DNA of 64,000 nt from Mobula hypostoma (Eukaryota): assembly GCF_963921235.1 (NCBI RefSeq), contig NC_086108.1:53570001-53634000 (forward strand), in the 5' to 3' direction. Below the pieces are notes generated by a model. It did no database searches, had not been told where the DNA came from, and was given only the letters and a program-made list of their open reading frames with translations. This document shows, piece after piece, positions 404 through 61,617 of this stretch (the first letter of the stretch is position 1; the number at the start of each line of letters is the position of its first letter). The position numbers and the translations under genes were made by a program.

Positions 404-1427
404 GAAACATGGAAACATAGAAAATAGGTGCAGGAGTAGGCCATTCGGCCCTTTGAGCCTGCACCGCCATTCAGTATGATCATGGCTGATCATCCAACTC
501 AGAACCCTGTACTTGCCTTCCCTCCATACCCCCTGATCTCTTTAGCCACAAGGGCCATATCTAACTCCCTCTTAAATATAGCCAATGAACTGGCCTCAAC
601 TGTTTCCTGTGGCAGAAAATTCCGCAAATTCACCACTCTCTGTGTGAAGCAGTTTTTCCTAATCTCGGTCCTAAAAGGCTTCCACTGTATCCTCAAACTG
701 TGATCCCTCGTTCTGGACTTCCCCAACATCGGGAAAAATCTTCCTGCATCTAGCCTGTCTAATCCCTTTAGGATTTTATACGTTTCAATAAGATCCCCCC
801 TCAATCTTCTAAATTCCAACGAGTATAAGCCTAGTTGATCCAGTCTTTCATCATATGAAACTCCTGCCATCCCAGGAATCAATTTGGTGAACCTTCTTTG
901 TACTCCCTCTATGGCAAGGATGTCTTTCCTCAGATTAGGGGACCAAAACTGCACACAATACTCCAGGTGTGGACTCACCAAGGCCTTGTACAACTGCAGT
1001 AGTACTTCCATGCTCCTGTACTCGAATCCTCTTGCTATGAGTGTCAGCATACCATTTGCCTTTTTCACTGCCTGCTGTACCTGCATGCCCACTTTCAATA
1101 CTGGTGTACAATGACACCCAGGTCTCGTTGCACCTCCCCTTTTCCTAATCGGCCACCATTCAGATAATAATCTGTTTTCCTGTTTTTACCACCAAAGTGG
1201 ATAACTTCACATTTATCCACATTAAATTGCATCTGCCATGAATTTGCCCACTCACCTAACTTATCCAAGTCACCCTGCATCCTCTTAGCATCCTCCTCAC
1301 AGCTAACACTGCCGCCCAGCTTCGTGTCATCCGCAAACTTGGAGATGCTGCATTTAATTCCCTCATCTAAGTCATTAATATATATTGTAAACAACTGGGG
1401 TCCCAGCACTGAGCCTTGCGGTACCCC
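404..1427 (-). mobile_element. 5'-truncated CR1 LINE (RT C-terminal half, 3' UTR, tail) nested in the host CR1
   Basis: ORFs 1095-1409 (KFADD) and 499-1098 (HLEYCVQFWSP); TTTCTATG-type tail at 404-423; CTTA duplicated at 400-403 and 1427-1430. Confidence 0.93.
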
Positions 1428-2244
1428 TTAAGGTGGATAAGTCAACTGGGCCAAATGGACTACATGCCAGAGTCCTGAAAGAGGTTGCTGAAGAAATGAC
1501 ATAATTGGTCATAATCTTTGAAGAATCCCTTGATTCTGGCATGGTCCTGGAGGACTGGAAGATTGCAAATGTCACTCCACTCTTTAAGAAGGGAGGAAAG
1601 CAAAAGAAAGGAAATTATAGGCCAGTTAGCCTAACCTCAGTGGTTGGGTAAGTGTTGGAGTCTACGTTTTAGGGGTACTTGGAGACTAATGATAAAGTCA
1701 GCATGGTTTCTGTAAAAGGAAATCTTGCCTGACAAATTTGATAGAATTCTTTGAGGAAGTAACAAGCAGGGTGGACAAAGGAGAGGCAGTAAATGTCATT
1801 TACTTGGATTTTCAGAAGGCATTTGATAAGATGCCACACATGAGACTACTTAACAAGGTAAAACCCTATCTCATTACAGGAAAGATACTCACATGAATAG
1901 AGGAATGGCGGACAGCCAGGAGGAGCTTGGGAATAAAAGGGGCCTTTTCTGGTTGGCTGCCAGTGACTAGTGGTGTCCCTCAGGGGTCAGTATTGGGACC
2001 ACTACTTTTCACATTGTTTCTCAATGATTTGGAGCATGGAGTTGAAGGCCTTGTGGCAAAGTTTGCGGATGATACAAAGATAGGTGGAGGGGTAGATAGT
2101 GCTGAGGAAGCAATGCAGTTGCAATAGGACTTAGACAAATTGGAAGAATAGGCAAAAAAGTGGCAGATGGAATACAGTGTTGGGAAATGTATGATAATAC
2201 ATTTTGGTAAAAGGAACAATAGTGTGGACTATTATCTAAATAGA

Positions 2245-4301
2245 ACATAGAATAGTACAGCACAGTACAGGCCCTTCGGCCCACAATGTTGTGCTGACCC
2301 TCAAACCCTGCCTCCCATATAAGCCCCCACCTTAGATTCCTCCATATACCTGTCTAGTAGTCTCTTAAACTTCACTAGTGTATCTGCCTCCACCACTGAC
2401 TCAGGCAGTGCATTCCACGCACCAACCACTCTCTGAGTAAAAAACCTTCCTCTAATATCCCCCTTGAACTTCCCACCCCTTACCTTAAAGCCATGTCCTC
2501 TAGTATTGAGCAGTGGTGCCCTGGGGAAGAGGCGCTGGCTGTCCACTCTATCTATTCCTCTTATTATCTTGTACACCTCTATCATGTCTCCTCTCATCCT
2601 CCTTCTCTCCAAAGAGTAAAGCCCTAGCTCCCTTAATCTCTGATCATAATGCATACTTTCTAAACCAGGCAGCATCCTGGTAAATCTCCTCTGTACCCTT
2701 TCCAATGCTTCCACATCCTTCCTATAGTGAGGTGACCAGAACTGGACACAATACTCCAAGTGTGGCCTAACCAGAGTTTTATAGAGCTGCATCATTACAT
2801 CGCGACTCTTAAACTCTATCCCTCAACTTATGAAAGCTAACACCCCATAAGCTTTCTTAACTACCCTATCCACCTGTGAGGCAACTTTCAGGGATCTGTG
2901 GACATGTAACCCCAGATCCCTCTGCTCCTCCACACTACCAAGTATCCTGCTATTTACTTTGTACTCTGCCTTGGAGTTTGTTCTTCCAAAGTGTACTACC
3001 TCACACTTCTCTGGGTTGAACTCCATCTGCCACTTCTCAGCCCACTTCTGCATCCTATCAATGTCTCTCTGCAATCTTTGACAATCCTCTACACTATGTA
3101 CAACACCACCAACCTTTGTGTCGCCTGCAAACTTGCCAACCCACCCTTCTACCCCCACATCCAGGTCGTTAATAAAAATCATGAAAAGTAGAGGTCCCAG
3201 AACAGATCCTTGTGGGACGCCACTAGTCACAATCCTCCAATCTGAATGTACTCCCTCCACCACCACCCTCTGCCTTCTGCAGGCAAGCCAATTCTGAATC
3301 CAACTGGCCAAACTTCCCTGGATCCCATGCCTTCTAACTTTCTGAATAAGCCTACCGTGTGGAACCTTGTCAAATGCCTTACTAAAATCCATATAGATCA
3401 CATCCACTGCACTACCCTCATCTATATGCCTGGTCACCTCCTCAAAGAACTCTATCAGGCTTGTTAGACACGATCTGCCCTTCACAAAGCCATGCTGACT
3501 GTCCCTGATCAGACCATGATTCTCTAAATGCCTATAGATCCTATCTCTAAGAATCTTTTCCAACAGCTTTCCCACCACAGACGTAAGGCTCACTGGTCTA
3601 TAATTACCCGGACTATCCCTACTACCTTTTTTGAACAAGGGAACAACATTCGCCTCCCTCCAATCCTCCGGTACCATTCCTGGGGACATCGAGGACATAA
3701 AGATCCTAGCCAGAGGCTCAGCAATCTCTTCTCTCGCCTCGTGGAGCAGCCGGGGAATATTCCGTCAGGCCCCGGGGACTTATCTGTCCTAATGTATTTT
3801 AACAACTCCAACACCTCCTCTCCCTTAATATCAGCATGCTCCAGAACATCAACCTCACTCATATTGTCCTCACCATCATCAAGTTCCCTCTCATTGGTGA
3901 ATACCGAAGAGAAGTATTCATTGAGGACCTCACTCACTTCCACAGCCTCCAGGCACATCTTCCCACCTTTATCTCTAATCGGTCCTACCTTCACTCCTGT
4001 CATCCTTTTTTTCTTCACATAATTGAAGAATGCCTTGGGGTTTTCCTTTACCCTACTCGCCAAGGCCTTCTCATGCCCCCTTCTTGCTCTTCTCAGCCCC
4101 TTCTTAAGCTCCTTTCTTGCTTCCCTATATTCCTCAATAGACCCATCTGATCCTTGCTTCCTAAACCTCATGTATGCTGCCTTTTTCCTCCTGACTAGAT
4201 TTTCCATCTCACTTGTCACCCATGGTTCCTTCACCCTACCATTCTTTATCTTCCTCACCAGGACAAATTTATCCCTTACATCCCGCAAGAGATCTCTAAA
4301 C
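2245..4301 (-). mobile_element. Young 5'-truncated CR1 LINE with nearly intact ORF2 RT region, nested in the host CR1
   Basis: ORFs 3590-4318, 2823-3698 and 2301-2795 form one RT broken by one frameshift (about 3750) and one TGA stop (2823-2825); ATAGA duplicated at 2240-2244 and 4302-4306. Confidence 0.95.
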
Positions 4302-7300
4302 ATAGAGAGAAGGTTCAAACATCAGAGGTGCAGAGGGACTTGGGAGTCCTCGTGCAAGACATCCAGGAGGTTAATTCACAGGTTGAGTCTGCATTAAAGA
4401 AGGCAAATGCAATGTTGGCATTTATTTCAAGGAGAATAGAGTATAAAAGCAAGAAGATAATGCTGAGACTTTATAAGACACTAGTCAGACCGCACTTGGA
4501 GTATTGTCAGCAGTTTTGGGCCCCATATCTCAGAAAAGATGTGTTGTCATTGGAGAGAGTCCAGAAGAGGTTCACGAGGATGATTCCGGGAATGAAGGGG
4601 TCAGCATATGAGGAGCATTTGGCAGCTTTGGGCCTGTACTGACTGGAAATTGGAAGAATGCAGGAGGATCTCATTGAAACCTATCGAACGTTGAAAGGAC
4701 TAGCTAGGGTGGATGTGGAGAGGATGTTTCCTGTGGTGGAGGTATCCAGAACTAGAGGGCACAGCCTCAAAATTGAGGGGTAACCTTTTATAACAGAGGT
4801 AAGGAGGAGTTTTTACAGCCAGAGAGTGATGAATCTGTGGAATGCTCTGCCACAGACTGAGGTGGAGGCCAGGTCCGTGGGTATATTTAAAGCGGAAGTT
4901 GACAGTTTCCTGATCAGTCAGGGTATGAAATGATATGGCGAGAAGGTAGGTGTATGGGATTGAGTGGGATCCAGGATCAGCCATGATGGAATGGCGGAGC
5001 AAACTCGATGGGCTGAATGGCCTAATTCTGCTCCTATGTCTTATGGTCTTATATAAGCAATCAGTTCAGGGTTATTGAGGGTCAAGTGGAAAGAAAGAAG
5101 GTTGATTGTAGATAGTGGAAAGGAGCATCTCAGAGAAGTTGTATTTTGAAATTTAATTATGAAGTAGATGGAATCGCCCACAGCACTTGGAATCTCAAAT
5201 GGAAATGGTAGACATGGTGAATTAATCCTTCACATCAATCTTTTCAGATAAGATGGAAGATAAATTCCAAATCCAGTTAAACAACCTTTGGAAATTTATA
5301 GTATGTGTTGAGGTCATTAGAACATGTGTTGCAAAGAAACACAAGGAATTGAATGTCAACAGGGCATCTGTTGCAGATGGCATGCACTTTCATATCCTTA
5401 GGGAAATTGAAAAGCTTTGAATAAAAAAAGTGCATAATAAAAACTCAGAAAATCCCTAAATATAATTTTGTTGTGAAAATAAAAATTCAGACATGTCGAA
5501 GATAAATTATCCAAATGTCAGCAGCTCATGCTATCATATTTTTGCTCTCTAGAGCAGCAGTCATAATTGATAATGAGCCTGTGTTTACAAGTAATAACTC
5601 ATAGCTCATGAATTTGCTAGCATTCCTTGAGAGTATTTCAAAGACATTTGTTTTAGCATTTGAGGAAGATTAATGTTCATTGTGCTAATGCAGACTAGAT
5701 ACCCAGATAGAAATCTGGTTTGTAGTTTAAAGTAGTTGATAATGATGAATGGTGAAGTCCCTATCAGGGCAGTGCGTAAGGTTTCCTAAAGCTTGCACTG
5801 AATAGCTCTGATTCATAAGTGTGAAGAGAATGCTTCTTTCAGTGTCTCGTTTATAATTGGTGTCAAGCTGTGCGTAGGTGAACAAAGTAAGGAAAGCATC
5901 TGAACCAGGTGAAGTAAGCAGATAAAAACATTGCACATGAAATTTAATGTGTATAGTACATAATAGTCCAGGAAACATGAAGCACGCGTATATAGTGGCT
6001 TGCGGTCTTATTGCCAAAAGTGGAAAATAAAAACATTTTGGATGTGATTATGAACCATTCACTGAAAAGTATGAGATTATACCCGGGTTAATCAAATACT
6101 GGAATTTATCTTTGGGCCTTTTCAATCCAAATTGAATCAAGGTATTTTAACTATATGACTATTTAAGTCACATTTGGAATATTAAAGTCTTTGAGCCATC
6201 TATGTCTTGTTATAGTTTACCTTGTTCTTCAACAATAACAGTGACATATTTACTTCTCCAATGGCTTGAAAATTTCAGTTAAATTTATTTGGTGTGGACA
6301 ACTTACTCCAAATCCAGGATGGCTTTTTCTAAATAAACAATCACACTGTCTTGAAGTGAAGCTTCAAATAACGTGACTGGGAAGATGGGCCCAGAGGTTC
6401 ATAAATTTTATTTTTTTCTCTATCTTGCCTTTTATATTTGTAATTATCCAGTCTACAAAAGGACGATTCCTGAAGTAGGGAGATCTTGAATGGTAAGGTC
6501 TGAAACTTTTGCAGACTTCCCAGCTAATTTCTTTAATGCCCTGTGTAAAGCCCATTATTTTCTGTGGATTTGTCAGCATTTAATGTTACTATATTTCCTT
6601 TTTTTTGCCCATGTTAATAGCAGTAAGTGCATTTTGGTATCCTTTGAAAGCCTCTTCAACCATGACCAGCAGAAACTCAATTTTGTTCATTTAACACGCC
6701 TGGTGTTAACTTCTTTTCATTCACTTTATGGTTCATATTTATTTTGAAACATGGCAAAAATACTCTCATCTTTACATCTCCCCTTTACATAAAATATTAA
6801 AACAGCTTCGTAAATTTTGGTTGTTTTATGTTCATAAAATGGTTGGAGGATTACTAAAGCTGTGGCATAGTTGAGATCATTAAAGAATGAAATGACTGCA
6901 GGATGGAAACTCAGCCTTGTAATTGAGAATGGTCATTAGCTTCATTGTAGAGAATGTTGCACTAAGTGACAGCTCTTGCTGCTGCTGATTGTTCTGGAAT
7001 GAGCCAGCTCCCTCTCGAGCTGTAGCAGACAGTCAGAGGAAGTCATTGTTGTTTCTTGACCTGTAAAAATGCCTCCAAGAATAATTATTGTGAATGTTTG
7101 TGACTGCTGTGAAGCTTTCTGACATTACATCTGTGACTGGCTCAGAGGGATGGCATTGGCTATAAAGTGCTTTGGGTCGCTTGAAATGCAAGTCATGTCT
7201 ATTGGCCCTCTGCCTGCTTCAGAAACTCAGGCTCGCGTACTTGGCAAGAAACTGTTTCCCAACAATGGAAGGAGTCTAGCTCAGATCAGAGGTAACAAAT

Positions 7301-15500: not shown

Positions 15501-16215
15501 AATTTGATTCCCGCACCCAGATCAGTAAACTAGACTGAGTACTGATCCATGCATCATTACAACTTCCTAACATAAAATGATTCTGTTTTCTGTCCATTAA
15601 TCAGTTTCAGTCCACATATTTGTATTTTCCCAATTACATGCAGTCAAAATTTGGGTGATGCCTTATCAAAGGCCAAACACATCACTTCCACTGGTCCCCT
15701 TATCAACTCTCCGAGGTAACAACTCAAAATAAAACTTTAAACATGACATCTGTTTCATAAAACCATGCTGACTCTGCATTATCTAACGTGCTGTGCTTTT
15801 GCCAGATCCCTGAATTCTATTCCTTGGTACCACAGTACAGAGTCAGCTGACTATAACTTCAGTTAAATAGTTTTGAGTGGTTACTGAGTTAATTGGGAAA
15901 GTAACAAACTACTTGTTTACATTTTTACTACTTGTAGAACTTCTTATGGTTTGTTATTTGAAATGAGTCGCAGTGTTACATGGTATGAAAACAGGGCCTT
16001 CCGCTCAACTTCCATGCCAACCAAGATGTCTCCATTTACCTGCATTTGGTCCATATCCCTCTAAATCCTTTCTATCCATGTACCTGTGTCATTGTTACTA
16101 AAATGTTATAATTGTACCCATTCGTACCACTTAGTGATGGAATCAGGTGCACATTAGCTCTGCCAGGGTTTGTGGGCCATTATTTCCAAGGTGAAACCTA
16201 ACATTATGAATGGCT

Positions 16216-16350
16216 GTCGTGAGGAAATCTGCAGATGCTGGAAATTCAAGCAACACACATCGAAATGCTGGAGGAATGCAGCAGGCCAGGCAGCATCTAT
16301 AGGAAGAAGTACAGTCGCCGTTTTGAGCCGAGACCCCTCGTCAGGACAGG
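16216..16350 (-). mobile_element. Solo Penelope-like pLTR (135 bp) with degenerate hammerhead motif at 16312-16347
   Basis: 13-bp TSD ATTATGAATGGCT at 16203-16215 and 16351-16363; minus strand reads GTC-CTGACGA-GGGGTCTCGGCTC-AAAAC-GGC-GACTG. Confidence 0.9.
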
Positions 16351-17562
16351 ATTATGAATGGCTATGATGCTTCACTCCCAGATGAATTCAACACCTTCTA
16401 TGCATGCTTTGAAAAGGAGAGTAAAAGTACACCTGTGTGAATCTCTGCAGCACCTGCCAACCTTGTGATCTCTGTCATAGAGGCTGACGTCAGAACATCC
16501 TCCAAGAGGGTGAATCCTTGCAAGCGTCAGACCCTGTTGACGTATCAGGTAGGGCACTGGCGGGAGTGTTCAAGGACATCTTCAAAATCTCACAGCTGCA
16601 TTTGGAAATAATTCTCGCCTGCTTCAAAATGGCAACAATCACGTCAGTGTGCAAGAAGAACAGGGCAAGCTGCCTCAGCAACTCCCGCCCAGTGGCACTC
16701 ACATCTACTGTGAGAGGTTGGTCATGGCTGGAATCAACTTCTGCCTAAGCAAGGACCTGGACCTGCTGCAGTTTGCCTTCTGCCACAATAGGCATTCAGT
16801 GAATGCAAGCTTACTGGCTCTTCACTCAGCCTTGGATGATCAGGACAATAGCAATACCTACATCAGGCTTCTGTTTATTGATTACAGCTCAGCATTCAAC
16901 AAAATCATAACCTCAGTTCAAATAAATAGGCTCCAAAACCTGGGTCTTCCTCCCAATAAGGAAGTCAAGGACCCTCTGCAACTGGATCCTTGATTTCCTC
17001 ATCGAGAGACCACAGTCTGTGCAGATCAAAAGTAACAGCTCCTTCTTGCTGCCAATCAACACTGGCCCACGTTAAGGAAGTGTACTTAGCCCACTGCTCT
17101 ACTGTCTCTGCACCTATGACTGTGTGGCTCGGCACAGCTCAAATGCCATCTTTAAATTTTCCATTGACACAACAATTGCTGGCAGAATTTCAGATGGTGA
17201 CAAGGAGATGTACAGGAGTGAGATTGATCATCTGGTTAAGTGGGGTCACAACAATCTTGCATTCAATGTCAGTAAGACCATAGAATTGATTGTGGACTTG
17301 AGGAAGGGGAAGTCAAGGGAATACATGCCAATCGGGAGCATTCTAACTGATTGCATCGTCTGGTATGAAAGGGCTGTTGCACAGGATTGGAAAAAGCTGC
17401 ACAAATTTGTAAACTCAGTCAACTCTATTATAGGCTCTAGCTTCCCCAGCATCCAGGACACCTCCAAGAGGCAGTGCCTCAAAAAATTTGGCATCCATCA
17501 TGAAGGACCCTCATCACCCAGGACGTTACCTTGTCTCATTTCTATCATCAAGGAGGAGGTAC

Positions 17563-20860: not shown

Positions 20861-21056
20861 AAAAATAAAGCAATAACGTATAAACCACACATAAATATGC
20901 CTAATGACATACTTATCATTTGTTGTCTTTTGCTTGTCCTGTTGTTCTTCTGCAGTGTTGTCTCAGTGGCTACAGTGTGGCTGCTTGAGGCTCCTGCCTT
21001 CTATGTTAGGATACTGCAGGTGATCTTGGAGCACAAAGCTGAGTAGCAATAGGTCA

Positions 21057-22363
21057 AGCAAAGCACACAAAATACTGGACGAACTCAGCGGGCCGGGCAG
21101 CATAAATGAAAAAAATACAGTTGATGTTTCAGGCCGAGACCCTTCAGCAGGACTGGAGAAAAAGAGAAAAAAGCCGAGGAGTAGACTAAAAGGTGGGGGG
21201 AGGGGAGAGAGAAGCACAAGTTGGTGGGTGAAACCTGAAGGGGCGAGATGAAGTAAAGAGCTGGGAAGCCGATTGGTGAAAGAGATGCAGGGCAGCGAGG
21301 GGGGAGTCTGACACAGGTCACGGAAGAAAGAAAAGGTTGGAGGAGCACCAGAGGGAGGCAAAGGCGGGGGGGGGGGGCAAGGAGATAAGGTGAGAGAGGA
21401 AAATGGTGAAGGAGAGGGGTGGGGGCATTACTGGAAGTTCAAAAAAAACCGATGTTCATGCCACCAGGTTGGAGGCCACCCAGACGGAACATAAGGTGTT
21501 GCTCCTCCAAACTCAGTGTGGATTCATCACGACAGTGGAGGAGGCCATGGATAGACATATTGGAATGGGAATGAGAATGGTAAGTGGAATTAAAATGGGT
21601 GGCCACTGGGAGATCCTGTTTTTTTCTGGTGGATGGAGCTTAGGTGCTCAGAAAAGCAGTTTCCCAATCTATGTTGGGTCTCACCGATATATAGGAGGCC
21701 ACACCAGGAGCACCGGACACAATATATGACCAGACAGACTCACAGGTGAAGTGAAGTGAAGGTCCTGAATGGTATTGAGGGAGGAGGTGTCGGGGCAAGC
21801 TTGCAAGGGTAAGTGCCAGGAGGGAGATCAGTGGGGAAGGACGAGTGGACAAGAGAGTTACATAGGGAGCGATCCCTGTGGAAACAGAAAGTGGAGGGGA
21901 GGGAAAGATGTGTTTGGTGGTGGGATCCCGCTGGAGATGGCGGAAGTTGCAAAGAATTATTTGCTGGACACGGAGGCTGGTGGGGCGGTAGGTGAGGACA
22001 AGTGGCACCCTATCGTTAGTCAGGTGGCGGGAGGATGTGGTGAGAGCGGACACACGTAAAATGGCAGAGATGCAGTTGAGGGCAGTGTTGATGGTGGAGA
22101 AAGGGAAGCTCTTTTCTTTGAAGAAGGAGGACATCGCCTTCATTCTGGAATGTAAAGCCTCATCCTGAGAACAGATACGGCAGAGACGGAGGAATTGAGA
22201 GAAGGGGATCACATTTTTCACACACGTCTGCTCTCAGCCCATCCTCCTGCCACCCGAAATCACTGTACTTTTTTCCATAGATGCTGCCTGGCCTGCTGAG
22301 TTCCTCCAGCATTTTGTGTGTGTTGCTTGGATTTCCAGAACCTGCAGATTTTCTCTTGTTTGT
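21057..22363 (-). mobile_element. 5'-truncated Penelope-like element (RT thumb/linker, GIY-YIG, 3' pLTR) with a short inverted pLTR at about 22253-22363
   Basis: ORF 21640-22221 has IPFSQFLRLCRICS and RVPLVLTY. Other frames give YIGET and LPVATHFNS...EEQHLMFRLG. pLTRs at both ends are inverted. Possible decayed TSD GTAGCAATAGGTCAA / GTCGTGATAGTTCAA. Confidence 0.9.
21118..21155 (-). ncRNA. Minimal type I hammerhead ribozyme motif, A6C variant, with CpG-type decay
   Basis: Minus strand reads CAGTC-CTGCTGA-A-GGGTC-TC-GGCCT-GAAAC-ATC-AACTG. Confidence 0.6.
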
Positions 22364-23400: not shown

Positions 23401-23740
23401 CAAGTCAATGAACTATTAAGTGAATGACAGTTGAATGGATCATTTGGTGGAGTTCTCAAACCACAGATCTAGAAGATCTCAAGTTCATTTTTTAGTCTAT
23501 GATCTCAACAAGACAAAGAGTGTCATTAGCCACACATTGATAGAATGCTAATGCCTGCAGAACTAATGGCCACTACCTTCAACAAGAAGAGGGGAAAGAT
23601 TATTGAAAAATTCACAACAGCTTGTTTTTTCTCCTAATGCTTTCTGCATTGTGACAATGACTTTGTTTAAAAATACTTCATTGGCTGCAAAACACTTTTG
23701 GATTTTCTAAAGCCATGAGAACCACTAGTATAAATGCAGT

Positions 23741-24755
23741 GCAGCACATGCAAAATGCTGGAGGAGCTCAGCATCTATAGAAATGAGTAAGTAGTTGATG
23801 TTTTTGTCTGAGACCCATCTTCATGGTGAAAAAGGAAGGGAGGAGACTACGGAGTAAAGTGGTGGGGTGGGGGAGGAGAAGGCTAGGTAGAAGATCAGGT
23901 GAAGCCAGGTGAGAGGGAAAGGTAAAGGGCTGGGGAAGAAGGAATCTGATAGGAGAGGAGAGTGGACCATGGAAGAAAGGGAAGAAAGAAAGGCACCAGG
24001 GGGAGATGATAGGCAAGTGAGGAGAGGTAAGAGGCAGAACAGGGAATAGAAGAAGAGGGAAGGGGGAGGGGGAGGGGAAAAATTAACAGAAGAATAAATC
24101 GATGTTTCCAGTTCCGAAGAAGGGTCTCAGCTCAAAACATTGACTGTTTATTCATGTCCATAGATGCTGCCTAACCTGCTGAGTTCCTCCAGCATTTTGT
24201 GTGTGTTGCTTTGGATTTTCACGTTTAAAATTTGCTACTCTACTGCAATGTCTCTTCGAGGGATGCCTACCCTGAAGAAGCTTAACTCATCAACAGGAGT
24301 TCAGTGAGACCTTCTCAAACTGCTCCCCTGTGTGATCTTTGCTGCCCTTTGACTCTTCAACTATGCTCTCACCTGGATTCCCAACCACAGCCACGCATTC
24401 TTCCTGGGAACTTGTCTTCAAACATCAATTTCTGTCTTCTGGCCTCTTCTCACCTGCCTATCACCTCCCCTTGGTGCCTCTCTTTCTTCCCTTTCTCCCA
24501 TGGTTCAGTCTCCTCTCCTATCAGATTCCTTCCTCTCCAGTCCTTTACCATTGCTACCCACCTTATCCTCCTTTCCCTCTCCCCACCTTTTTATTCTGCT
24601 GTTTACCCCCTCCCTTCCAGCGCTGAAGGAGGGTCTCACTCCAAAACGTGAACTGTTTATTCATTTCCATGGATGTTGCCTGACCTGCTGAATTCCTCCA
24701 CCATTTTGTGTGTGTTGCTTTGGATTTCCAGCATCTGCAGAGCTTCTCCTGTTTT
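23741..24755 (+). mobile_element. Internally deleted non-autonomous Penelope-like element: inverted pLTR, pLTR, ORF start, 3' UTR, pLTR
   Basis: 13-bp TSD GTATAAATGCAGT at 23728-23740 and 24756-24768; direct pLTR repeats with hammerhead-like motifs at 24109-24146 and 24618-24655; ATG at 24248 and an HSHAFFLGTCL remnant. Confidence 0.85.
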
Positions 24756-26549
24756 GTATAAATGCAGTTCCTTTTTAGTTTATATTGCATTGAAAGCATC
24801 TGTTCTTCAAAGCAGCTTTCAAAATTTGAGCATGAATGTTTATCAGGTGAATGTCAATGTGTCAATTTGATATTGAACTCTATTTTCAATTTGCCAGAAT
24901 TCAGACATTTGTACTGCCGTTGAACATTGTTGCTATCAACTAGTCACATACATTTAAAATTGAGATTGAAAGTTTCAGAATTAATCAGATCAGTGTTCTG
25001 GTTATTATATGGTTGCAGCTGGTGGACATGGTAGAGAGAGATAGATAAATCAAATTTTATCCAAACCGTGTTGGGGAAGAAACCAAATCAGGTGGCAGGA
25101 AATCAAACTGAATGATAGTTGGATTCAGATCCAACACACCAGAACTAACTTCTCCAGTTGCTTTGCACCAGTTTTGAACAATGAAGTTTTAAGTTTCATT
25201 CAAGCTTTCTCAGAATGATTTGCAGAGGGCAGTTATTAAATGTGGGTAGCCAAAGAGGGATATGCATTTCAGAGAATATCTCATTCTTCCTGACATTGTA
25301 CTGGATTTGTTAGGTAACAAAATGTGGAGTAAAATTGATACTCTGCTGATATTACTTTGTACTTTTGCAATCGTGCATACTTCAGATTGAAATGCTATGA
25401 CGTAGACTATTGTCCCATTTATCTGTGAGTGCAATAGCTTGCCACCGTCTGCAAAGTATAAAGCTATATTGGGTTAGTTAAGGGCTGCTGGTACAATATC
25501 CTTTTATTGTGCAGAAATAAGGAAAAACATGTCCTTTATCAGTGTAAAAGTTGGTCAATTTGTGAGAAGTGACAGGGATAACTAATTGTGTTGTATACAA
25601 TGGTAAACTCTCAAACCTTCGAAGTCCCTCAATCATCTTCACATTAATTTCCCGTTGAAGTTGGATACAAAAGAAGGCGTATTTCAGAGTAGCAATGCAG
25701 AATACAGAAGTTAGAGGGTCTAACAGTTTATGATTGGCGTTCTCAATCTTGATTTACAAAATAGAATGTTAAACAACATGGTACATTATGGTCACTAATA
25801 ACCACAATCATCATGTAGAAGAGATACAACCAAATTATATAGTTTTTTAAATTTAAAGGTAGAAACTAGAAAGCCACTACTCTGAAATATGCCCTCTTTT
25901 GGTTGCTTTGCCATTTGCCCAAGCTACACTGGACACTTGAACCTCTGTCTGAAAAAAATAAAAATTCTAAGTTCCTAATGAGGGAAACATTCCTTAATTT
26001 AAACAATAAACTACAATTATTTGAACTACCCTGTAGTGACGTAAGTGCATCTGGTGATGACAATGGCTTAAGTTGAGAAAACAAGCGCCATTCCATTGAG
26101 TGCCAGAATAGACTCAAAAGTCCCTGTCATGGCTCCATGTTCCTCAAAAAGCAAAATACTGAGGATGCTGGAATTCTGAAATAAAAACCAGTAATACTCA
26201 ACAAATGAGGCAAGAGTAATGGAAATGGAAAAAGGACTAACCTTTCAGGCCAATGACCTTTCAATAATGTTCCTATGTTCCTTACTTTAATTTTGTCATT
26301 GTTTTATGGTGTTAGGAAGGTAATGATAACTCCCTGCTCACATTTTTCATGGAGAGCTCTGTGTAATGGAGCAAAAGTTATCAGAAGATTATTATGTATG
26401 ACATAAATAATGGTGTGAATTAATTGGCATAATCTTCCGGAATTCTTTTAACCATGATGTTGGTATACCATTAAATGTTCATAAATTGTTAGGCACTACG
26501 GCTATATTTCTTATAAAGCGAATTGGACCCCTTAATCTCCATAATAAGG

Positions 26550-28868: not shown

Positions 28869-30140
28869 TGTTGTGTATGTGGCCATTTACACAACAATAT
28901 CATTAATAAAAGCACTAGAGACTGGAGCTAAGTTAACAGGGGCTTTTACTGAACTGAACACATATATACAGATCAATACGTGCCTAATAGCGCATACTCA
29001 ATAACGTGTTACTATGACATAAAATAGTCCCATATTATCCAGTAGGCTATGTGGTACACTCCTCCCCTTTTTTAAAAAAAGTGTAACAACTTTTTTTTTA
29101 GGGGCATTACACTAAACAAATACTATGTGTACCCTTAATATACAAATGCCCACCAACTGTTTAATTAGTAACAATAATATGAAATTATAACAAAGTAATG
29201 TAATAATAATAATTATTATAATACTTATAACTCAAGACTCTAGGCGGGCCTTCTCTGCCTCTCTGGGTAACGTCTGCCCTGCAACGTTTGATTTGGAGAA
29301 TTAGTCTCCACAGGTACATCAGGTGAATCCTCAGCACTGATGACAGGCTTATCTGTGGGCGAGGCTGATGTGGTCACATCAGGAGTGTTTGCTTCTTTGT
29401 CCAGGGAGTCCGGGCAAGGTGTTGTTGTATTTTTCACCTGAGCATTCAGAATTTGATCCACATGACATCTCCATACGTTCTTTCCCACCTGTACTCTATA
29501 CATCAGTGGCCAGTCTATGGCGGAAGTTATACCCGGCTGCCACTTTTCAGTCCGGTTATCCCGTGCAAGAACTGACTGTCCCACATTGAAGTTCCGTGTT
29601 GACTTAACATTCAAGTGTTTGAACAGTCTGTTCTCTACATCACGCCGTACATTTGGTTTGAGAAGATCCATGCGGGACCTTGGGTTCCTGTTCAGAAACA
29701 TCATCGCTGGAGTCTGGTTAGTGGCAGCATGTACTGCATTATGATCAGTAAAGAGGAAGCTGTCTGTCTTGTGTAGTAGTGGTCGATTTTCGCTGTCCCT
29801 TGCCTTGAGGGCTTTCTTGAATGTCTGTACAAATATTTCTGCCAAGCCATTTGTGGATGGATGGTAAGGAGCTGATGTAAAGTGCTTGATTCTGTTGTTC
29901 TTCACAAAACTTTGGAATTCTTCAGAGACAAGTTGTCGTCCATTGTCTGTGCAGATTTGCTCTGGTATGCCATTCCTGGCAAACATGGTCCTCAGCACTG
30001 TAATGGTCTTTTCCGATGTGGTTGTCTTCGTTCTTGATGACCCCTGGCCATTTGGAATGTGCATCAATGGCAATTAAAAAGATAGAGTCCATACTCCAAA
30101 CATCCCTTCGCTCATTGCGGCCAAAAAGTTCTATTTTAAC
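28869..30140 (-). mobile_element. Gypsy LTR retrotransposon 3' part: integrase, PPT and 3' LTR (28869-29058)
   Basis: IDAHSKWP, TDNG and APYHPSTNGLAE integrase core (ORFs 29922-30194 and 29240-30073); purine tract ending GGGGAGGAG directly before TG; LTR ends CAACA. Confidence 0.9.
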
Positions 30141-32396
30141 TTCATCAATCCCTCGGTTGATGAAGGCTAATACACCGTATGCCTTCTTAACCACACAGTC
30201 AACCTGCGCAGTAGCTTTGAGTGTCCTATGGACTCACATCCCAAGATCCCTCTGATCCTCCACACTGCAAGAGTCTTACCATCAGTACTATATTCTGCCA
30301 TCATATTTGACCTACCAAAATAAACTACCTCACACTTATCTGGGTTGATCTCCATCTGCCACTTCTCAGCCCAGTTTTGCATCCTATCAATGTCCCACTG
30401 TAAACTCTGACAGCCCTCCATACTATCCACCAACCTTTGTGTCATCAGTAAATTTACTAACCCATCCCTCCACTCTTTATCCAGGTCATTTATAAAAATC
30501 ACAAAGAGAAGGGGTCCCAGAACAGATCCCTGAGGCACACCACTGGTTGCCAACCTCCATGCAGAATATGACCTGTTTACAACCACTCTTTGTGGGCCGA
30601 AGGGCCTGTATTGTGCTGTAGGTTTTCTATGTTTCTATGTTTCAGTGGGCAAGCCAGTTCTGGATCCACAAAGCAATGTCCCCTTGGATCCCACACCTCC
30701 TTACTTTCTCAATAAGCCTTGCATGGGGTACCTTATCAAATGCCTTGCTGAAATCCATGTACACTACATCTACTGCTCTACCTTCGTAAATGTGGTTAGT
30801 CACATCCTCAAAAAATTTAATCAGGCTCGTAAGGCACAACCTGCCTTTCACAAAGCCATGCCTCTCCAAATGTTCATAAATCCTGCCTCTCAGGATATTC
30901 TCCATCAACTTACCAACCACTGAAGTAAGACTTACTGGTCTATAATTTCCTGGGCTACCTCTACTCCCTTTCCTGAATAAGGAAACAACATCTGCAACCC
31001 TCCAATCCTCCGGAACCTCTCCCGTCTCCATTGATGATGCAAAGATCTTTGCCAGAGGCTCAGCAATCTCCTCCCTTGTCTCCCACAGTAGCCTGGGGTA
31101 TATCTCCTCTGGTCCCGGAGACTTATCCAACTTGATGCTTTCCAAAAGCTCCAGCACATCCTCTTTCTTAATGTTTATATGCTCAAGCTTTTCAGTCCAC
31201 TGTAAGTCATCCCTACAATCACCAAGGTCCTTTTCCGTAGTGAATACTGAAGCAAAGTATTCATTAAGTACCTCCGCTACCTCTTCCGGTTCCATACACA
31301 CTTTTCCACTATCTCACTTGATTGGTCCTATTTTCTCATGTCTTATCCTCTTGCATTTCACATACTTGTAGAATTCCTTGGGGTTTTCCTTAATCCTGCT
31401 TGCCACAGCCTTCTCATAGCCCCTTCTGGCTCTCCTAATTTCATTCTTAAGCTCCTTCCTGCTAGCCTTATAATTTTCTAGATCTCTATCATTACCTAGT
31501 TTTTTGAACCTTTCATAAGATTTTCTTCTCTTCTTGACTAGATTTTCAACAGCCTTTGTACACCACAGTTCCTGTACCCTACCATCCTTTCCCTGTCTCA
31601 TTGGAATGTACCTATGCAGAACGCCACACAAATATCCCCTGAACATTTGCTGCATTTCTGCTGTACATTTCCCTGAGAACATCTGTTCCAAATTTATGCT
31701 TCCAAGTTCCTGCTGATAGCTTCATATTTCCCCTTACTCCAATTAAATGCTTTCCTAACTTGTCTGTTCCTATCCCTCTCCAATGCTATGGTAAAGGAGA
31801 TAGAAATGTGATCACTATCTCCAAAATGCTCTCCCACTGAGAGACCTGACACCTAACCAGGTTTATTTCCCTATACCAGATCAAGTACAGCCCTCCTTTT
31901 GTAGGCTTATCTACATATTGTGTCAGGAAACCTTCCTGAACACACCTAACAAACTCCACCCCATCTAAACCTATTGCTCTAGGGAGATACCAATCGATAT
32001 TGAGGAAATTAAAATCTCCCACCACGACAACCCTGTTACTATTGCACCTTTCCAGAATCTGTCACCCTATCTGCTCCTTGAAGTCCTTGTTACTATTGAG
32101 TGGTTTATAAAAAACACCCAGTAGAGTTATTGACCCCTTCCTATTTCTAACTTCCATCCACGGAGACTCAGTAGACAATCCCTCCATGACTTCCTCCTTT
32201 TCTGCAGCCGTGACACTATCTCTGATCAGCAGTACCATGCCCCCACCTCTTTTGCCTCACTCTCTGTCCTTCCTGAAACATTTGAAGCCTGGCACTTTAA
32301 GTAGCCATTCCTGCCCCTAAGCCGTCCAAGTCTCTGTGATGGTCACAGCATCATAGCTCCAAGTACTGATCCACGGTCTAAGCTCATCTGCTTTGT
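30141..32396 (-). mobile_element. Decayed CR1 ORF2 (endonuclease to RT) lacking its 3' end
   Basis: VGDFNF (31786-32025), NYRPVSLTS and DFSKAFDKVPH (30642-31301), SGVPQGSVLGP (30167-30586); several frameshifts. Confidence 0.93.
30590..30643 (+). mobile_element. About 54-bp CR1 3'-terminal stub inserted antisense into the CR1 RT
   Basis: TTGTGGGCCGAAGGGCCTGTATTGTGCTGTAGGTTTTCTATGTTTCTATGTTTC is the CR1 terminal stem-loop plus tail; matches the reverse of 43863-43917. Confidence 0.88.
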
Positions 32397-35817: not shown

Positions 35818-36204
35818 TCAGTGGTGAAAGGGACGGCTGCTGGAGCTTGATTTTGTCCATCAGCTCCATCACCCTGGCACTGCTCGTTAACTTTTACATG
35901 CCATAATGAGCACGGCTTGATTACATTGCTTTTGTCCGACCCGACTTATCATCATACTGGATAGCCCCGTCAGCTGTGACAATCTGATTAGGCTCAGAAC
36001 ATTTAACGTGTGCCTGCCCCACCCGTGACATGTACTTAAAATAGTATTCCTAGAACTCAAAAAGGCCAACGCACAATTCAGTCATTTGATTTCCTCCGAG
36101 GGCTCAGCTGTTTCAATACTCAGCTGCCACAACGCTGTCATAAAAATCCACTCTACTTGAAGAAGAGAATCCCTCTTAGAAGGAAAAGCAATATGCTTAA
36201 GACA

Positions 36205-36901
36205 AAGCACACGAAATGCTGGTGGAACACAGCAAGCCAGGCAGCATCTATAGGAAGAGGTACGGTCGAAGTTTTGGGCCGAGACCCTTCGTCAGGACTA
36301 ACTGAAAGAAGATGTAGTAAGAGATTTGAAAGTGGGAGGGGGAGGGGGAGATCCGAAATGATAGGAGAAGACAGGAGGGGGAGGGATGGAGCCAAGAGCT
36401 GGAAAGTTGACTGGCAAAAGGGATACAGAGCTGGAGAAGGGAGAGGTTCATGTGACGGGAGGCCTGGGGAGAAAGAAAGGGGGAGGGGAGCCCAGAGGAA
36501 GATGAGGAGCAGGCAAGGAGAGATTGTGAGAGGAACAGAGAGAGAAAAAAGGGGGGGGGGAGAGGAAGGAATAATAAATAAATAAATAAATAAATAAATA
36601 AGGGATGGGGTAAGAAGGGGAGGAGGGGCATTCATGGAAGTTAGAGAAGTCAATGTTCATGCCATCAGGTTGGAGGCTTCCCAGACGGAATATAAGGTGT
36701 TGTTCCTCCAACCTGAGTGTGGCTTCATCTTGACAGTAGAGGAGGCCATGAATAGACATATCAGAATGGGAATGGGACATGGAATTAAAATGTGTGGCCA
36801 CTGGGAGATCCTGCTTTCTCTGGCAGACAGAGCGTAGGCGTTCCACCAGCATTTTTTGTGTGTTGCTTGAATTTCCAGCATCTGCAGATTTCCTCATGTT
36901 T
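36205..36901 (-). mobile_element. 5'-truncated Penelope-like element (GIY-YIG C-terminus plus pLTR) with short inverted pLTR at 36838-36901; hammerhead motif at 36263-36300
   Basis: Perfect 17-bp TSD GCAATATGCTTAAGACA at 36188-36204 and 36902-36918; peptide DLPVATHFNS...LEEQHLIFRLGSLQPDGMNIDF; internal (AAAT)n. Confidence 0.93.
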
Positions 36902-37469
36902 GCAATATGCTTAAGACATTTGTTATACCACACAAGGAAGCTTAACATCAGACAATACAGCAAATACCTCCTCCCAACATTTGGGAGGAACTTATTTACT
37001 GAAAACATTAGCCAGCGATCCAAAACCCTCAGAGTTACCTGTCCATTCGGGGACTTGACAAGTTTTGGGTGCAGTATCGCTCAATTTGCTTGTCCACTTC
37101 CACATTTTCCTGAATCCCACTTGCAGCGCCCAAATGTAATGTGCTGGACTGATCAGACCGAACAATCTGAGTGTCTGGGAGATGTGGTAATAAGCATACA
37201 AGCACAATAAAGTAACTTAAGCCTAATTTATTATTATAAAATAGAAAGCACAATTAAACCACACCAAGAATAGCAAATCACAAAGATTTCTGGGCTCACG
37301 AATCTTAGTCATCACTTGATTGTTACTGTTCTCAGGGGAAACCCGAATTCTGACCCATGAAACCACCCATGGGCCCCAGACACTGATTACAATCCCGGTC
37401 TGGGTGAAGTCCAAAGAAAATTCAAAAAGTAGCCCAATGCATCTACAAGCATCATAAGCACAGAGCAAC

Positions 37470-41035: not shown

Positions 41036-43862
41036 AACCGAAAAGGAGGTTGGGACCTTTGGAAAAGACAAAATAACAACCAGCCCATGGCAACAATGTC
41101 AAAACGTCAACTGTATAAATATAAGAGTGACTAACTCTCTCTGGATGTCATTTACTTGAATATGTTGCTATAGTGTTGACTCCAGTAATTACGATTCTGA
41201 TTATCTTGTCTATATTTCTTTAAAACCAGCATGATGCTAAATTACCCTCATGAATTGAGTTTCAGAGTAAAGACATAAAACTGTACAAACCGTCGATTGC
41301 TCTTGCATTTGTAACTGTGGACCAGCTACTTTAGACGTTCCTGTTCTGTTCTTGTTGGTGTAATGAATTCCAATTGACTGTAATAAAAAGACTGTATTAG
41401 AACTGAAGCGATACACTGGGGATCTCTAGCACAGCAGGAAATATTGAAGAATCAAACTGTTAAAAGAGTAAACTTTCTGAGTGACTTTGAATAGTATTGA
41501 AAACGTGTAACATCCCCATTATTTTAAAATGCACTGTAAATTCCTTCTATATAAATTATATTCTGGCTAATTCAAGTTTCAAGTACTGAAGTAATTGACA
41601 GTCAAACAATCATATTTGCCTATGTACACATGGAATTACTTGTCTGTTTACAACTAAAAGCAAAAATCTTTTAGCAGTTCTGTACATTGACTAATATAAC
41701 TATTTAACTAACTAATCAGCCAGGTTATAAACATAGATATATGCTTGCTGGTCAGTAGCTCTGTGGGAAATTCTACTGCAATACTGAGTGAAAAAACAGA
41801 AAATGTCCAAATTCAATCCCCTAAATGCAGAGTTGGCTTCAACTTTATGTCAAATAAAACCTCTGTTTCAAAACTGTTTCACCAAAATAAACCATTCTGC
41901 TTCAGTAAAAAAAGACTTTCTGCACGGGCAGCTGGATTCAGGACAATTTGCTCCCCCAAAAGAAGTTCAGAATTGTAAAGTATCAAATCCAAATATGAGT
42001 AATTAATGACTCCCACAAGCATGTGTTTCTATATTCATTGGTTTCACTCTTTCTTCTCTCTTAAGTCAAAGATTTTAACCATACCAGGTACACTTTTATC
42101 GAACATGCTGTTGGCACATTGCTTATTGGAATCTGTTCCTCTTCTACCAGGAAAGTAAATGTATATATACCCATGCCTGGCAGTAAATAGTCAGAAAATA
42201 ACACTTCTTATTCTCTGACTTTCTTCAAAATCATGACTTGCTGACTCTTCTGTATTTGATAGATTCCACGTTTAAAACGGCCAGCCCTGGAATTTGTCTG
42301 CTGCCTTCTGTTTGCCAAAAAGAATTAATTTAACACATCTGCCATTTCACGATCCTTCACAATTTCCAAAGAACTAACATATTTGACCTGCTGTTGATAT
42401 TTCCTGTCAGTTAACTATTAAAATATTGTTCCTGCCAATGCATATGTTTGATGCAGACCCCAGAGCAATGATTTTATGGGGCTTCATTAGCTACACAGAG
42501 ACTTGCTGGATAGGATTGTGGGTCACAAACTGGACATATGCCAGGCCACATTTTACAGTGAAGAAAAAGCTAGGTTTAAGAGCGGTGCTGATGGCCAGCA
42601 CAACCTTCAATTTGAGCTCCTTCATTGGAACTTACAACTTTCTTTTTGCTGCTTCCTTGCTGGCAGGTTTCCTCAACTATTTGAATCAGGTCCAGTAGTG
42701 CATAGGCAGCATAGTGTGTGGGAATCTACTTCTGAAGTGATGATTTTAAAATTTTGGTTGTCAGGTTTGTGTTTTATCATTTAGTATGCTGCATTACACT
42801 AAATATTGTTCATGTATTAATTACTTATATTTGGATATGATGCTTTACAATTCTGAACTTCTCTTGGGGGAGCAAATTGTCCTGAATCCAGCTGCAGTTC
42901 TACTTGAAGAAAGAGGCCAGGATATGAAATCCAAATGGAGCACTGAGGTTTGCAGAGAAAGTGTGGATGGAGTTTTATCATTAGCATAGACCAATCAGCC
43001 TGAATGGCTCGTCATTGTGCTGTTGAACTTCTTGCCGTTTTATGTGGCAGTTCCTGAGAAACTATGAAAATGAGTTAAGTATACTTCACAAGTTATTCAT
43101 GCCCTCATTCAGACCTAATGCCTGTATCAGTTAACTCAATCGTTCTGTGTGTAACATGTCATTATATTTGGTACCTCTTTAAAAATTGCAGCTCATGACT
43201 AACTCTCTTCAGAACGGTTAGAAGTCAAGCACACTCTGCAAAGAAAATGGGAAGGGTTGGGGGTAGACAAAGCAAGGTAAATGTCTGTGGTAGACTCAAG
43301 ACCAGGAGAGACTGAGATTGACAAGGGATGGTGTTTTCATCTGAGAGTGATGAAGGCCTGTTGACTGCAGCTGATTTACAGTATCTGGAGGAGAAGTCAG
43401 AGAAAACAAACACTGCTGCAGCCATGAGCTACAACCACTTCAGTTTCTGGAAACTTGAAATAAGAGGACATCCCTTTCTATTTTGGGTTTTCAACAGCTT
43501 CTGTGTTTTGCATCTCATATTCCCAGCGTTACTGTGTTTCCTTCTTTCCTGTGGTCTCGTTCATCTCCTACTTACATCTTCTCCAGGCAGATCATAGGTA
43601 CTCAGTGCCCAGTATGCTGCTGGCACCTAAGGCAGAAATGAAGGTCCTCTTTCTCTGGCAGTGTTCAGGACTTCCTTTATGATGTCAGTAGCTTCCCCTC
43701 AGAAAAGGGGATGGGGAATGGGGAAGTGTGGGGGGCCATTACCGGAGTCTGAGAAATCAATGTTCATGCCATCAGGTTGGAGGCTACCAGATGCAATATA
43801 GGTGGTGTTTCTCCAACCTGAGTGTGGCCTCATCGTGTCAGCAGAGGAGGCCATGGATAGAT

Positions 43863-44102
43863 AGAAACATAGAAACAGAGAAAACCTGCAGCACAATACG
43901 GGCCCTTCGGCCCACAATTCTGTGCCAAACATGTACTTACTTTAGAAATTACCTAGGGTTACCCCCTCTATTTTTCTAAGCTCCATGTCCTTATCCAGGA
44001 GTCTCTTAAAAGACACTATCATATCCGCCTCCACCACCGTCACCGGCAGCCCATTCTATGCACTCACCACTCTCTGTGTAAAAATTCTTACCCCTGACAT
44101 CT
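43863..44102 (-). mobile_element. CR1 3'-end insertion inside the PLE
   Basis: AGAAACAT-type tail, GGCCCTTCGGCCC stem-loop, FYTESGE segment; GAT duplicated at 43860-43862 and 44103-44105. Confidence 0.88.
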
Positions 44103-44468
44103 GATGTATTGGAATGGGAATTAAATGGATGGCCACTGGGAGATCCTGCTTTTTCTGTCCTATGGAGCATAGGTGCTCGGCAAAGCGATCTCACCCCCCC
44201 CCCCCAACTTCACCATTCCCCATTTCCTTTTCCCCCCTCACCTTATCTCCTTGCCTGTCCATTGCCTCCCTCTGGTGCTCATCCCCGTTTTTCTTTCTTC
44301 CATGGCCTTTTGTCCTCTCCTATCAGATTCCCCCTTTTCCAGCCCTGTATCTCTTTCACCAATCAACTTCCCAGCTCTTTACTTCACTCCTCCCAGTTTC
44401 ACCTATCACCTTGCGGTTCTCCCTCCCCTCCCCCGACCTTTTAACTCTCCTCCTCATCTTATTTTCTC

Positions 44469-44506
44469 CAGTCCTGCTGAAGGGTCTCGGCCTGAAACAT
44501 CAACTG
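44469..44506 (+). ncRNA. Minimal type I hammerhead ribozyme motif, A6C variant
   Basis: CAGTC-CTGCTGA-A-GGGTC-TC-GGCCT-GAAAC-ATC-AACTG; identical to the reverse complement of 21118-21155. Confidence 0.6.
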
Positions 44507-44789
44507 TACTCTTTTTCATAGATGCTGCCTGACCTACTGAGTTCCTCCAGCATTTTGTGTGTGTTGCTTGGATTTCCAGCATCTTATGTGTGTAACTATG
44601 AAGTTTTGACACTATGCCAGAGTTGGAATCCCAAATTCTTCCCAATAGAGATAATATGCAAAAATATGTTTAAAGATAGGGAGCTAGGATATTCAATTGA
44701 GTTAGTATAAGATGAAACAAATAAAGGTGGGCAGGATGCTGGATGTCTAGATCAGTAACTTGTCTAGAGAATGGAAATGGTAGAGAGGA

Positions 44790-55795: not shown

Positions 55796-56093
55796 GCCTC
55801 CTGTCCCATGATCCTCTCCTTTCTCCAGCCTTGTATCCCTTTTGCCAATCAACTGTCCAGCTCTTGGCTCCATCCCTCCCCCTCCTGTCTTCTCCTAACA
55901 TTTTGGATCTCCCCCTCCCCCTTCCACTTTCAAATCTCTTACTATCTCTTCTTTCAGTTAGTCCTGATGAAGGGTCTCGGCCCGAAACGTTCACTGTACC
56001 TCTTCCTATAGATGCTGCCTGGCCTGCTGCGTTCACCAGCATTTTGTGTGTGTTGCTTGAATTTCCAGCACCTGCAGATTTCCTCATGTTTGC
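55796..56093 (+). mobile_element. Penelope-like 3' UTR plus pLTR (same subfamily as 36205-36901)
   Basis: Near-identical to the reverse complement of 36207-36465, plus the tail seen at 36838-36901. Confidence 0.92.
55959..55996 (+). ncRNA. Minimal type I hammerhead ribozyme motif with intact catalytic core
   Basis: TAGTC-CTGATGA(55964-55970)-A-GGGTC-TC-GGCCC-GAAAC(55984-55988)-GTT^CACTG; palindromic ACGT stem III; one mismatch at the base of stem I. Confidence 0.78.
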
Positions 56094-60795: not shown

Positions 60796-61617
60796 AAAAG
60801 CAATGTCTACTTCAAATCATAAATATCTCAACATTTTAAGATAGACACTTTTATGTGATAGACACAAGTTTGCAATTCAAAATATTGCCACAAAATTATA
60901 ACAAACAGAATTTTGATGCAGCATCAATGAAAACTGAAGTATGCCAAATTTTGTAGATATATTATTCCAATTTTATTCAAGCAATTATTATATTTATGAA
61001 AAATGACAAACAAACTCCAGTAATTATTTTATCATTCTTTAGTCAATTTCCAAATAACAGTTAAAATACTGAATATAATTGAAAAAATCTAGGTTTCAGA
61101 GTGAAATGAAATCAAAGTATTTTGGAAATTTAAGATGAATGTTAGGAACACTTCATAAAGAATAATAGTAATTTATTCAGAACAACTAGCTTATGCTGGT
61201 GTTTATATCATTATACACCTCCCCCCTCATTACCTATTTGCTTAACATTAATGACTCTGATTAACCAGTGTACAGGCAGTGGCAGGCAGATCCACATTGA
61301 CATCCTTCATTTGAAATGTAAATCACAAACTTTTTCCTATTTCTAAATTTCCAAATGATCACCAAAGGATGCTACAGTGGGCTAAGTTGCTTTCAACTGC
61401 TTAGATGCACAAAATTGCATATCTTTGCACACATTTCCACATTTCACACTCATCTTTAATAACATGTATAATAATAATTTTATTTATAGAGCACTTTTCA
61501 TACAGATGATGTAGTTCAAAGTGTTTTACAATAGGATTATAGAAGAATCATGAAAATAAAATGAAAAAAACCAAAGACGTTGCCAGGACTGGAAGACATG
61601 AGTTAAAAGGAAACTAC

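What the first reader, a model, noticed from the sequence alone, without database searches (positions are those of the whole stretch)
23728..24768. Retrozyme-like non-autonomous PLE: two direct-repeat hammerheads bracket a 509-nt unit
Seen: a 1015-bp unit flanked by a perfect 13-bp TSD. It has an inverted pLTR (23741-about 24105), a pLTR with hammerhead (24109-24146), about 180 nt of a PLE-like ORF start (ATG 24248, HSHAFFLGTCL), a jump straight to the 3' UTR, and a second pLTR with hammerhead (24618-24655). The predicted cut sites (after 24141 and 24650) are 509 nt apart. Established: retrozymes are non-coding retroelements whose repeated hammerheads release monomeric or circular RNAs. Inference: this could belong to a PLE-derived retrozyme-like family, but both cores in this copy are decayed and the deletion could post-date insertion.
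Basis: partly seen in the sequence, partly recalled or inferred. Interest (0 to 1): 0.7.

Follow-up and report, generated by a model that had tools for sequence, protein, structure and literature searches.

The report
One-off gutted Penelope insertion in ray
This is one old insertion of a known jumping gene (a Penelope-like element) in what is likely ray DNA; it lacks most of its coding part and both ribozyme motifs are damaged, no family sharing its joint was found, and the joint likely formed while the element was being copied in, so it is not shown to be a retrozyme.

Summary
The anatomy is real: 1015 bp inside a 13-bp duplication, two direct hammerhead repeats 509 nt apart, and an inverted arm. 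The stub is a true Penelope-like ORF start. It joins the ORF's last seven codons, not the UTR directly. The layout is the published canonical one (PMC3846280). Both cores have lost the G of GAAA. No family showed up: in contigs of four species 0 of 32 listed pieces bridge the joint, and summed depth there is 1-4% of the ORF-start side. One related species has the joint at single-copy-like depth. The 509 nt is a decayed length; about 600 nt originally. New observation: the inverted arm's inner end and the joint's resume point are the same element position. The likeliest reading is that both cDNAs ran off one RNA end during insertion (0.5); a later deletion guided by the inverted repeat is the rival (0.27). 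One unresolved contig keeps a low-copy family open (0.18). This scan noted similar gutted or two-armed Penelope insertions before, in this genome and others.

The parts
23728..23740 (+). left target-site duplication (13 bp)
   Evidence: (D4)
23741..24107 (-). inverted arm: last ~7 ORF codons, whole 3' UTR, decayed hammerhead, shortened tail; shares TT with the start of pLTR1
   Evidence: (I1-I3)
24105..24221 (+). pLTR1; starts 4 nt before hammerhead stem I
   Evidence: (D1)
24109..24146 (+). minimal type I hammerhead motif 1, decayed (CCGA for CUGA, AAAA for GAAA); predicted cut after 24141
24248..24419 (+). ORF start, about 57 codons, two TGA stops, conserved H..F...CL motif at residue 49
24419..24420 (+). 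joint from ORF start to ORF end; about 2.5-2.7 kb of ORF absent (inferred from relatives of about 890-950 aa)
   Evidence: (X5 record 21)
24420..24614 (+). ORF end (NIDF codons) and pyrimidine-rich 3' UTR, with 51-, 7- and 21-nt gaps against the inverted arm
24615..24755 (+). pLTR2 with full tail
   Evidence: (D1)
24618..24655 (+). minimal hammerhead motif 2, decayed (AAAA for GAAA, GUG at the cut site, 3 of 5 stem I pairs); predicted cut after 24650
24756..24768 (+). right target-site duplication (13 bp)
   Evidence: D4

Best explanation
This is a single, old, TSD-flanked insertion of a Penelope-like retrotransposon whose ORF-start/ORF-end joint appears private to this locus and likely formed during insertion. 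Shown: the anatomy, the identity of the pieces, presence of the insertion in related species, and that the inverted arm's inner end and the joint's resume point are the same position (AACATC). Inferred: the element's enzyme, supplied by an intact copy, cut both target strands 13 bp apart and primed a cDNA from each end, starting in the tail. Both cDNAs ran back through hammerhead and UTR and stopped at the same place, likely the 5' end of a broken or short RNA. The right cDNA then jumped to a 5' piece of element RNA (hammerhead front edge to about codon 57) and copied it to its end. The two cDNA ends annealed head to head over TT/AA and were filled in. Point changes and small deletions later shrank the unit from about 600 to 509 nt. 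No hammerhead cutting or RNA circle is needed.
For: The layout equals the published typical insertion, and an internally deleted derivative with a TSD is already described (PMC3846280 passages; PMC8557442 passages); summed depth is 1104/539/604/163 on the ORF-start side and 33,614-134,026 on the UTR side, but 36.9/5.5/10.5/6.1 at 24425-24429. Of 32 listed pieces, 16 stop at 24408-24420, 16 start at 24429-24432, and none bridges. Organism B has one 212-nt contig across the joint at depth 10.9, the same as its flank contigs (10.3), with 4 differences. The breakpoints coincide at offset 0; a rough uniform-chance estimate is 5/2700 (my arithmetic). Both arms carry T where most family contigs have C at three positions, 24479, 24483 and 24485, which points to one template. 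A purified Penelope protein cuts and extends both strands, initiates internally and does not need hammerhead cleavage (PMC11167929; a different clade). pLTR1 starts upstream of the cut site, as does the stub at 16351, which fits an uncut RNA.
Against: The timing of the joint is not shown. It predates the A/B split, but no orthologous contig across it was listed for C, D, F or G, nor for A itself. A later deletion guided by the inverted repeat predicts the same coincidence. One 181-nt contig in organism F (depth 11.5) appears to join an ORF-start piece ending at 24418 to the UTR with at most 69 unshown letters between, about the room the pre-decay form of this joint needs. Only 32 of 8518 pieces were listed, and summed contig depth is not a copy number. 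The three-way comparison of the repeats could not tell one template from two.
Confidence: 0.5

Rival explanations
1. A full-length element with an inverted arm inserted first. The ORF was deleted later, with one break fixed at the inner edge of the stem that the two ~365-bp arms can form.
For: It explains the same coincidence and the private joint. The locus lost several small pieces after the arms separated. Microhomology deletions disable Penelope copies in Adineta (PMC3846280).
Against: It needs arms about 3 kb apart to pair, and a deletion confined to the loop. The small gaps show 4-5-nt end repeats by eye (only the 7-nt gap confirmed by script), while the large joint seems to have about 1 nt (inferred; the intact continuation was not seen). 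No ortholog with a full ORF was listed, though orthologs were mostly missing from the lists.
Confidence: 0.27
2. A deleted master copy of about 600 nt was mobilised in trans a few times, like the short internally deleted elements (SIDEs) of R2, and this is one of its few offspring.
For: The F contig has paralog-level divergence (11 differences in 60 nt) and room for the ancestral joint. pLTRs alone suffice for mobilisation in trans (PMC3846280). Unreviewed scan notes report recurring joint types in this genome (e1-8158177).
Against: Depth across the joint is at most 1.0-3.7% of the ORF-start side, about one contig's worth in C, F and G and about three in A. No listed piece bridges. The F alignment stops at 24418 instead of running into the NIDF codons, which suggests a different joint. 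The model leaves the inverted arm's stop at the joint to chance (about 1 in 100, my estimate).
Confidence: 0.18
3. A true retrozyme: the two hammerheads cut out a monomer that circularises and is reverse-transcribed.
For: Two direct type I hammerhead motifs bracket a non-coding unit. A 2026 preprint derives animal retrozymes from Penelope pLTRs and finds them in one chondrichthyan. The circular fold is below mononucleotide shuffles (-91.9 against -77.2, sd 7.0).
Against: There is one unit, not a tandem array. Both cores, and the one in the inverted arm, lack the G of GAAA. The insert does not start at the cut site. The hammerheads are the minimal Penelope type, which cut weakly in vitro (PMC4209133). 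The linear fold is unremarkable against dinucleotide shuffles (z -0.67). No family was found.
Confidence: 0.05

Closest known systems
Typical endonuclease-bearing Penelope-like insertion: inverted pLTR + pLTR-ORF-pLTR with tail and TSD (Pen2a_Av and its internally deleted relative, PMC3846280; Fig. 2 of PMC8557442)
   Same: Two direct pLTRs, an adjacent inverted 5'-truncated copy overlapping the direct pLTR, tail longer at one end, TSD, internal deletion.
   Different: TSD 13 bp against 9-10. The inverted arm reaches into the ORF end, and its inner end coincides with the joint; I did not see that feature in the passages read.
Minimal type I hammerheads of metazoan pLTRs (PMC4209133)
   Same: Short stem I, core, stem II hairpin, almost no stem III; one per pLTR.
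   Different: All three copies here have lost conserved core letters.
Metazoan non-LTR retrozymes (PMC7229834; bioRxiv 10.64898/2026.07.22.740005)
   Same: Non-coding, type I hammerheads in direct repeat, Penelope-related, a size within the 51-972 bp range of the preprint.
   Different: Not a tandem array, cores incomplete, no family, keeps ORF ends and an inverted arm, no RNA evidence.
SIDEs of R2 (passage in PMC6765202)
   Same: Ribozyme-bearing ends kept, ORF lost.
   Different: SIDEs propagate as families; propagation was not seen here, and the parent is a Penelope-like element.

Membership tests
EN+ Penelope-like element | pLTRs in direct and inverted arrangement with one-sided tail and TSD | tested here: met
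EN+ Penelope-like element | minimal type I hammerhead in the pLTR | tested here: met
   motif present but decayed
EN+ Penelope-like element | ORF homologous to RT + GIY-YIG proteins | tested here: met
   Both ends only. The N-terminal motif occurs in 46 of 132 held relatives; an HMM from 43 of them scores the stub 11.5 bits against at most 7.8 for 1000 shuffles; relatives carry RVT_1 and GIY-YIG; ORF end NIDF. The large-library searches with the stub alone found nothing.
Neptune/Nematis clade | Zn-finger-like motif between RT and endonuclease | tested here: inconclusive
   Cys motif seen by eye in ray relative P0004; that part is absent from this copy and no tree was built
Non-LTR retrozyme | tandem repeat of two or more units | tested here: not met
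   one unit plus a repeated pLTR
Non-LTR retrozyme | complete hammerhead in consecutive units | tested here: not met
   both cores damaged
Non-LTR retrozyme | multi-copy family of the unit | tested here: not met
   0 of 32 listed pieces bridge the joint; depth trough. A few copies are not excluded.
Non-LTR retrozyme | expressed as monomeric linear and circular RNA | not testable with these tools
   only contigs were offered
SIDE-like non-autonomous derivative | same internal joint at several loci with different TSDs | tested here: inconclusive
   no assembly; one unresolved contig in organism F

The most novel reading that the evidence does not exclude
The locus records the Penelope insertion reaction: two cDNAs primed from the two target ends ran off the same 5' end of one RNA piece, and one jumped to a second piece, creating a gutted two-hammerhead unit in a single step. 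Such joints may recur near the ORF start and ORF end (the F contig), so this would be the birth route of SIDE-like or retrozyme-like Penelope derivatives in rays.
Probability: 0.2. Interest if true: 0.55.

Novelty: new member of a known kind. Interest (0 to 1): 0.22.

Why it matters
As it stands it is one dead copy among a very large number and matters little. Its one useful feature is the shared breakpoint. How Penelope-like elements build their inverted-plus-tandem insertions is stated to be undefined (PMC8557442). If zero offset between inverted-arm end and internal joint recurs across loci, it gives a cheap genome-only test that both arms are copied from one RNA piece, and it shows how two-hammerhead non-coding units can arise without any circle.

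Tried and rejected
Rfam gave no hammerhead hit. BLASTN of the element against the window found pLTR or UTR matches at about ten other places but none to the ORF stub or the joint. No RNA holder was listed; this says nothing on expression, and I laid no RNA run. A's own contig across the joint was not listed in runs X1 or X3, nor were orthologous joint contigs in C, D, F or G; these holes are not evidence. The stub alone found 0 hits in 1.84 billion representatives and none in the word-indexed search. A degenerate junction pattern found 0 matches in metagenome contigs, a weak test because that collection holds little ray DNA. Viral contigs gave no relative. The 29 metagenome loci were distant and matched neither the element's DNA nor the stub. 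Pairing between ORF start and ORF end as a cause of the jump was no better than shuffles (-8.8 against mean -9.6; 180 of 300 as good). A splice origin was rejected by eye: the base pair before the resume point is TG in window copies, not AG, though the donor side was not seen. Folding of six isolated hammerhead regions gave no z-score below zero, including the best-preserved copy, so it does not discriminate. The outer-versus-middle template test was inconclusive because the informative sites are CpG. Scan look-ups by place and by sequence returned nothing. A literature search for Penelope + elasmobranch + hammerhead ribozyme returned 0 papers; searches listed nothing on coinciding breakpoints.

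Full report
Setting. The window is repeat-rich DNA of 36-50% GC. A Penelope-type ORF remnant at 21640-22230 has its best hits in Hypanus and Mobula at 63-77% identity for most, so the host is likely a ray.

Observation. The 13-bp duplication, 1015-bp insert, 509-nt spacing of the direct repeats (85% alike) and the inverted arm are all present. A hammerhead pattern hits 7 places in the window and none in 100 shuffles; Rfam has no hit. In pLTR1 the core reads CCGAAGA and AAAA; in pLTR2 CTGAAGG, AAAA, a GUG cut triplet and 3 of 5 stem I pairs. That loss of the G in GAAA inactivates hammerheads is from my own knowledge. All three repeats share AAAAC and TCTCA. Both are CpG sites, so this may be independent decay or an already dead template.

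Identity of the pieces. The stub from ATG 24248 has two TGA stops. Searched alone it finds nothing. Among 132 held relatives, 46 carry an H..F...CL motif, most often at residues 41-47, against residue 49 in the stub. An HMM from 43 of those N-termini scores the stub 11.5 bits, above all 1000 shuffles (best 7.8). Relatives carry RVT_1 and GIY-YIG. Ray proteins end in GMNIDF (P0004), and window copies read GGCATGAACAT at that place. So 24420 onward is the ORF's end, and about 2.5-2.7 kb is missing (inferred from relatives of about 890-950 aa).

Decay. The right arm lacks 51, 7 and 21 nt that the inverted arm keeps; the inverted arm lacks 12 nt and 37 nt of tail. pLTR1 appears to lack about 18-20 nt of tail. 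The spacing between cut sites was therefore about 600 nt, not 509.

Age. Contigs of organism D cross both ends of the insertion and those of C cross the right end, with flank differences of 3-6% (records 9, 16, 25, 32). Organism B, about 1.5% from the window, has a 212-nt contig from 24256 to 24467 with 4 differences at depth 10.9, against 10.3 for its flank contigs (records 17, 21, 24). The joint is thus real, independent of this assembly, and older than the A/B split.

Family test. I laid contigs of A, C, F and G on 24350-24490 at 80% likeness. Summed depth is 1104, 539, 604 and 163 at 24395-24404, and 134,026, 64,278, 71,694 and 33,614 at 24455-24459. At 24425-24429 it falls to 36.9, 5.5, 10.5 and 6.1, which is 3.3, 1.0, 1.7 and 3.7% of the ORF-start side. 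Of 32 listed pieces (8486 more not shown), 16 end at 24408-24420, 16 begin at 24429-24432 and none bridges. The tool warns that summed depth is no copy number and that unitigs drop sequence; A's own joint contig was not listed. Against my reading, the joint table has one F contig from 24418 to 24430 with unknown letters between. By its depth (11.5) it is probably record 6, 181 nt, 11 differences in 60 nt. It has room for up to 69 letters, close to the ~70 that the pre-decay joint would need, but its alignment does not run into the NIDF codons. It may be another locus with a nearby joint. A large family is excluded; a handful of copies is not.

The shared breakpoint. The inverted arm's inner end and the right arm's start align at offset 0. 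The arms also share T at three positions where the family majority has C. Independent events would coincide within two bases about 0.2-1% of the time (my rough estimate). The simplest account is one reaction: both target ends primed cDNA from the tail, both stopped at one RNA end, and the right one jumped to a 5' RNA piece that begins at the hammerhead's front edge. Cutting and extension of both strands, internal initiation and independence from hammerhead cleavage are shown in vitro for an anole Poseidon element (PMC11167929, parts 1-2 of 4 read). The jump and the shared RNA end are my inference. A later deletion fixed at the stem edge remains a serious rival.

Comparison with what is known. 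PMC3846280 (passages) describes two direct pLTRs, an adjacent inverted pLTR, a tail and a 9-10-bp TSD as the typical structure, including an internally deleted derivative. PMC8557442 (passages) says the same and reports non-autonomous Chlamys. PMC4209133 (passages) describes the minimal hammerheads and their low activity. PMC7229834 (passages and Discussion) defines metazoan retrozymes as short tandem repeats expressed as circles. [quoted passage not shown] PMC6765202 (passages) describes R2 SIDEs. This locus meets the Penelope features and fails three retrozyme features. It works like an ordinary Penelope insertion.

Earlier scan notes. Unreviewed notes report two-armed and gutted Penelope insertions in this genome and in sharks. 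They gave the leads of two-end priming and recurring joints. I could not test them genome-wide and do not count them as support.

Verdict. Observation confirmed, retrozyme reading mostly not supported. New member of a known kind, interest 0.22. The shared breakpoint is the part worth a genome-wide count.

Noticed in passing
window 36188-36918: Two-armed Penelope insertion with a 17-bp flanking repeat; the long arm holds the ORF end (P0004 residues 298-385, 85%), the short arm only the tail.
   Followed up: partly
window 16203-16363: Stub of about 135 bp with a 13-bp TSD that begins 1 nt before hammerhead stem I, upstream of the cut site.
   Followed up: partly
window 43717-44584: Penelope copy with ORF-end pieces on the minus strand and a UTR + hammerhead arm on the plus strand that starts just after the ORF stop, about 30-40 nt from the breakpoint position of the finding; possibly a preferred stop region.
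   Followed up: no
window 21056-22361: Two-armed Penelope copy with about 780 bp of ORF; no flanking repeat of 8 or more bases found.
   Followed up: partly
window 55959-55996: Best-preserved hammerhead of the window: CTGATGA and GAAA intact, 4 of 5 stem I pairs.
   Followed up: no
window 25668-25901: 25-nt inverted repeat, 92% complementary, 184 nt apart; may be a MITE (I4).
   Followed up: no
window 24366-24380 and 23901-23915: A 14-of-15 match between the ORF start and the UTR part kept only in the inverted arm (I7); may be chance.
   Followed up: no
window 29240-30073 and 51253-53288; 499-4642, 30167-31721, 61543-63968: Frames that look like LTR-retrotransposon integrase/RNase H remnants and many CR1-type LINE remnants (labels recalled, not searched).
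   Followed up: no
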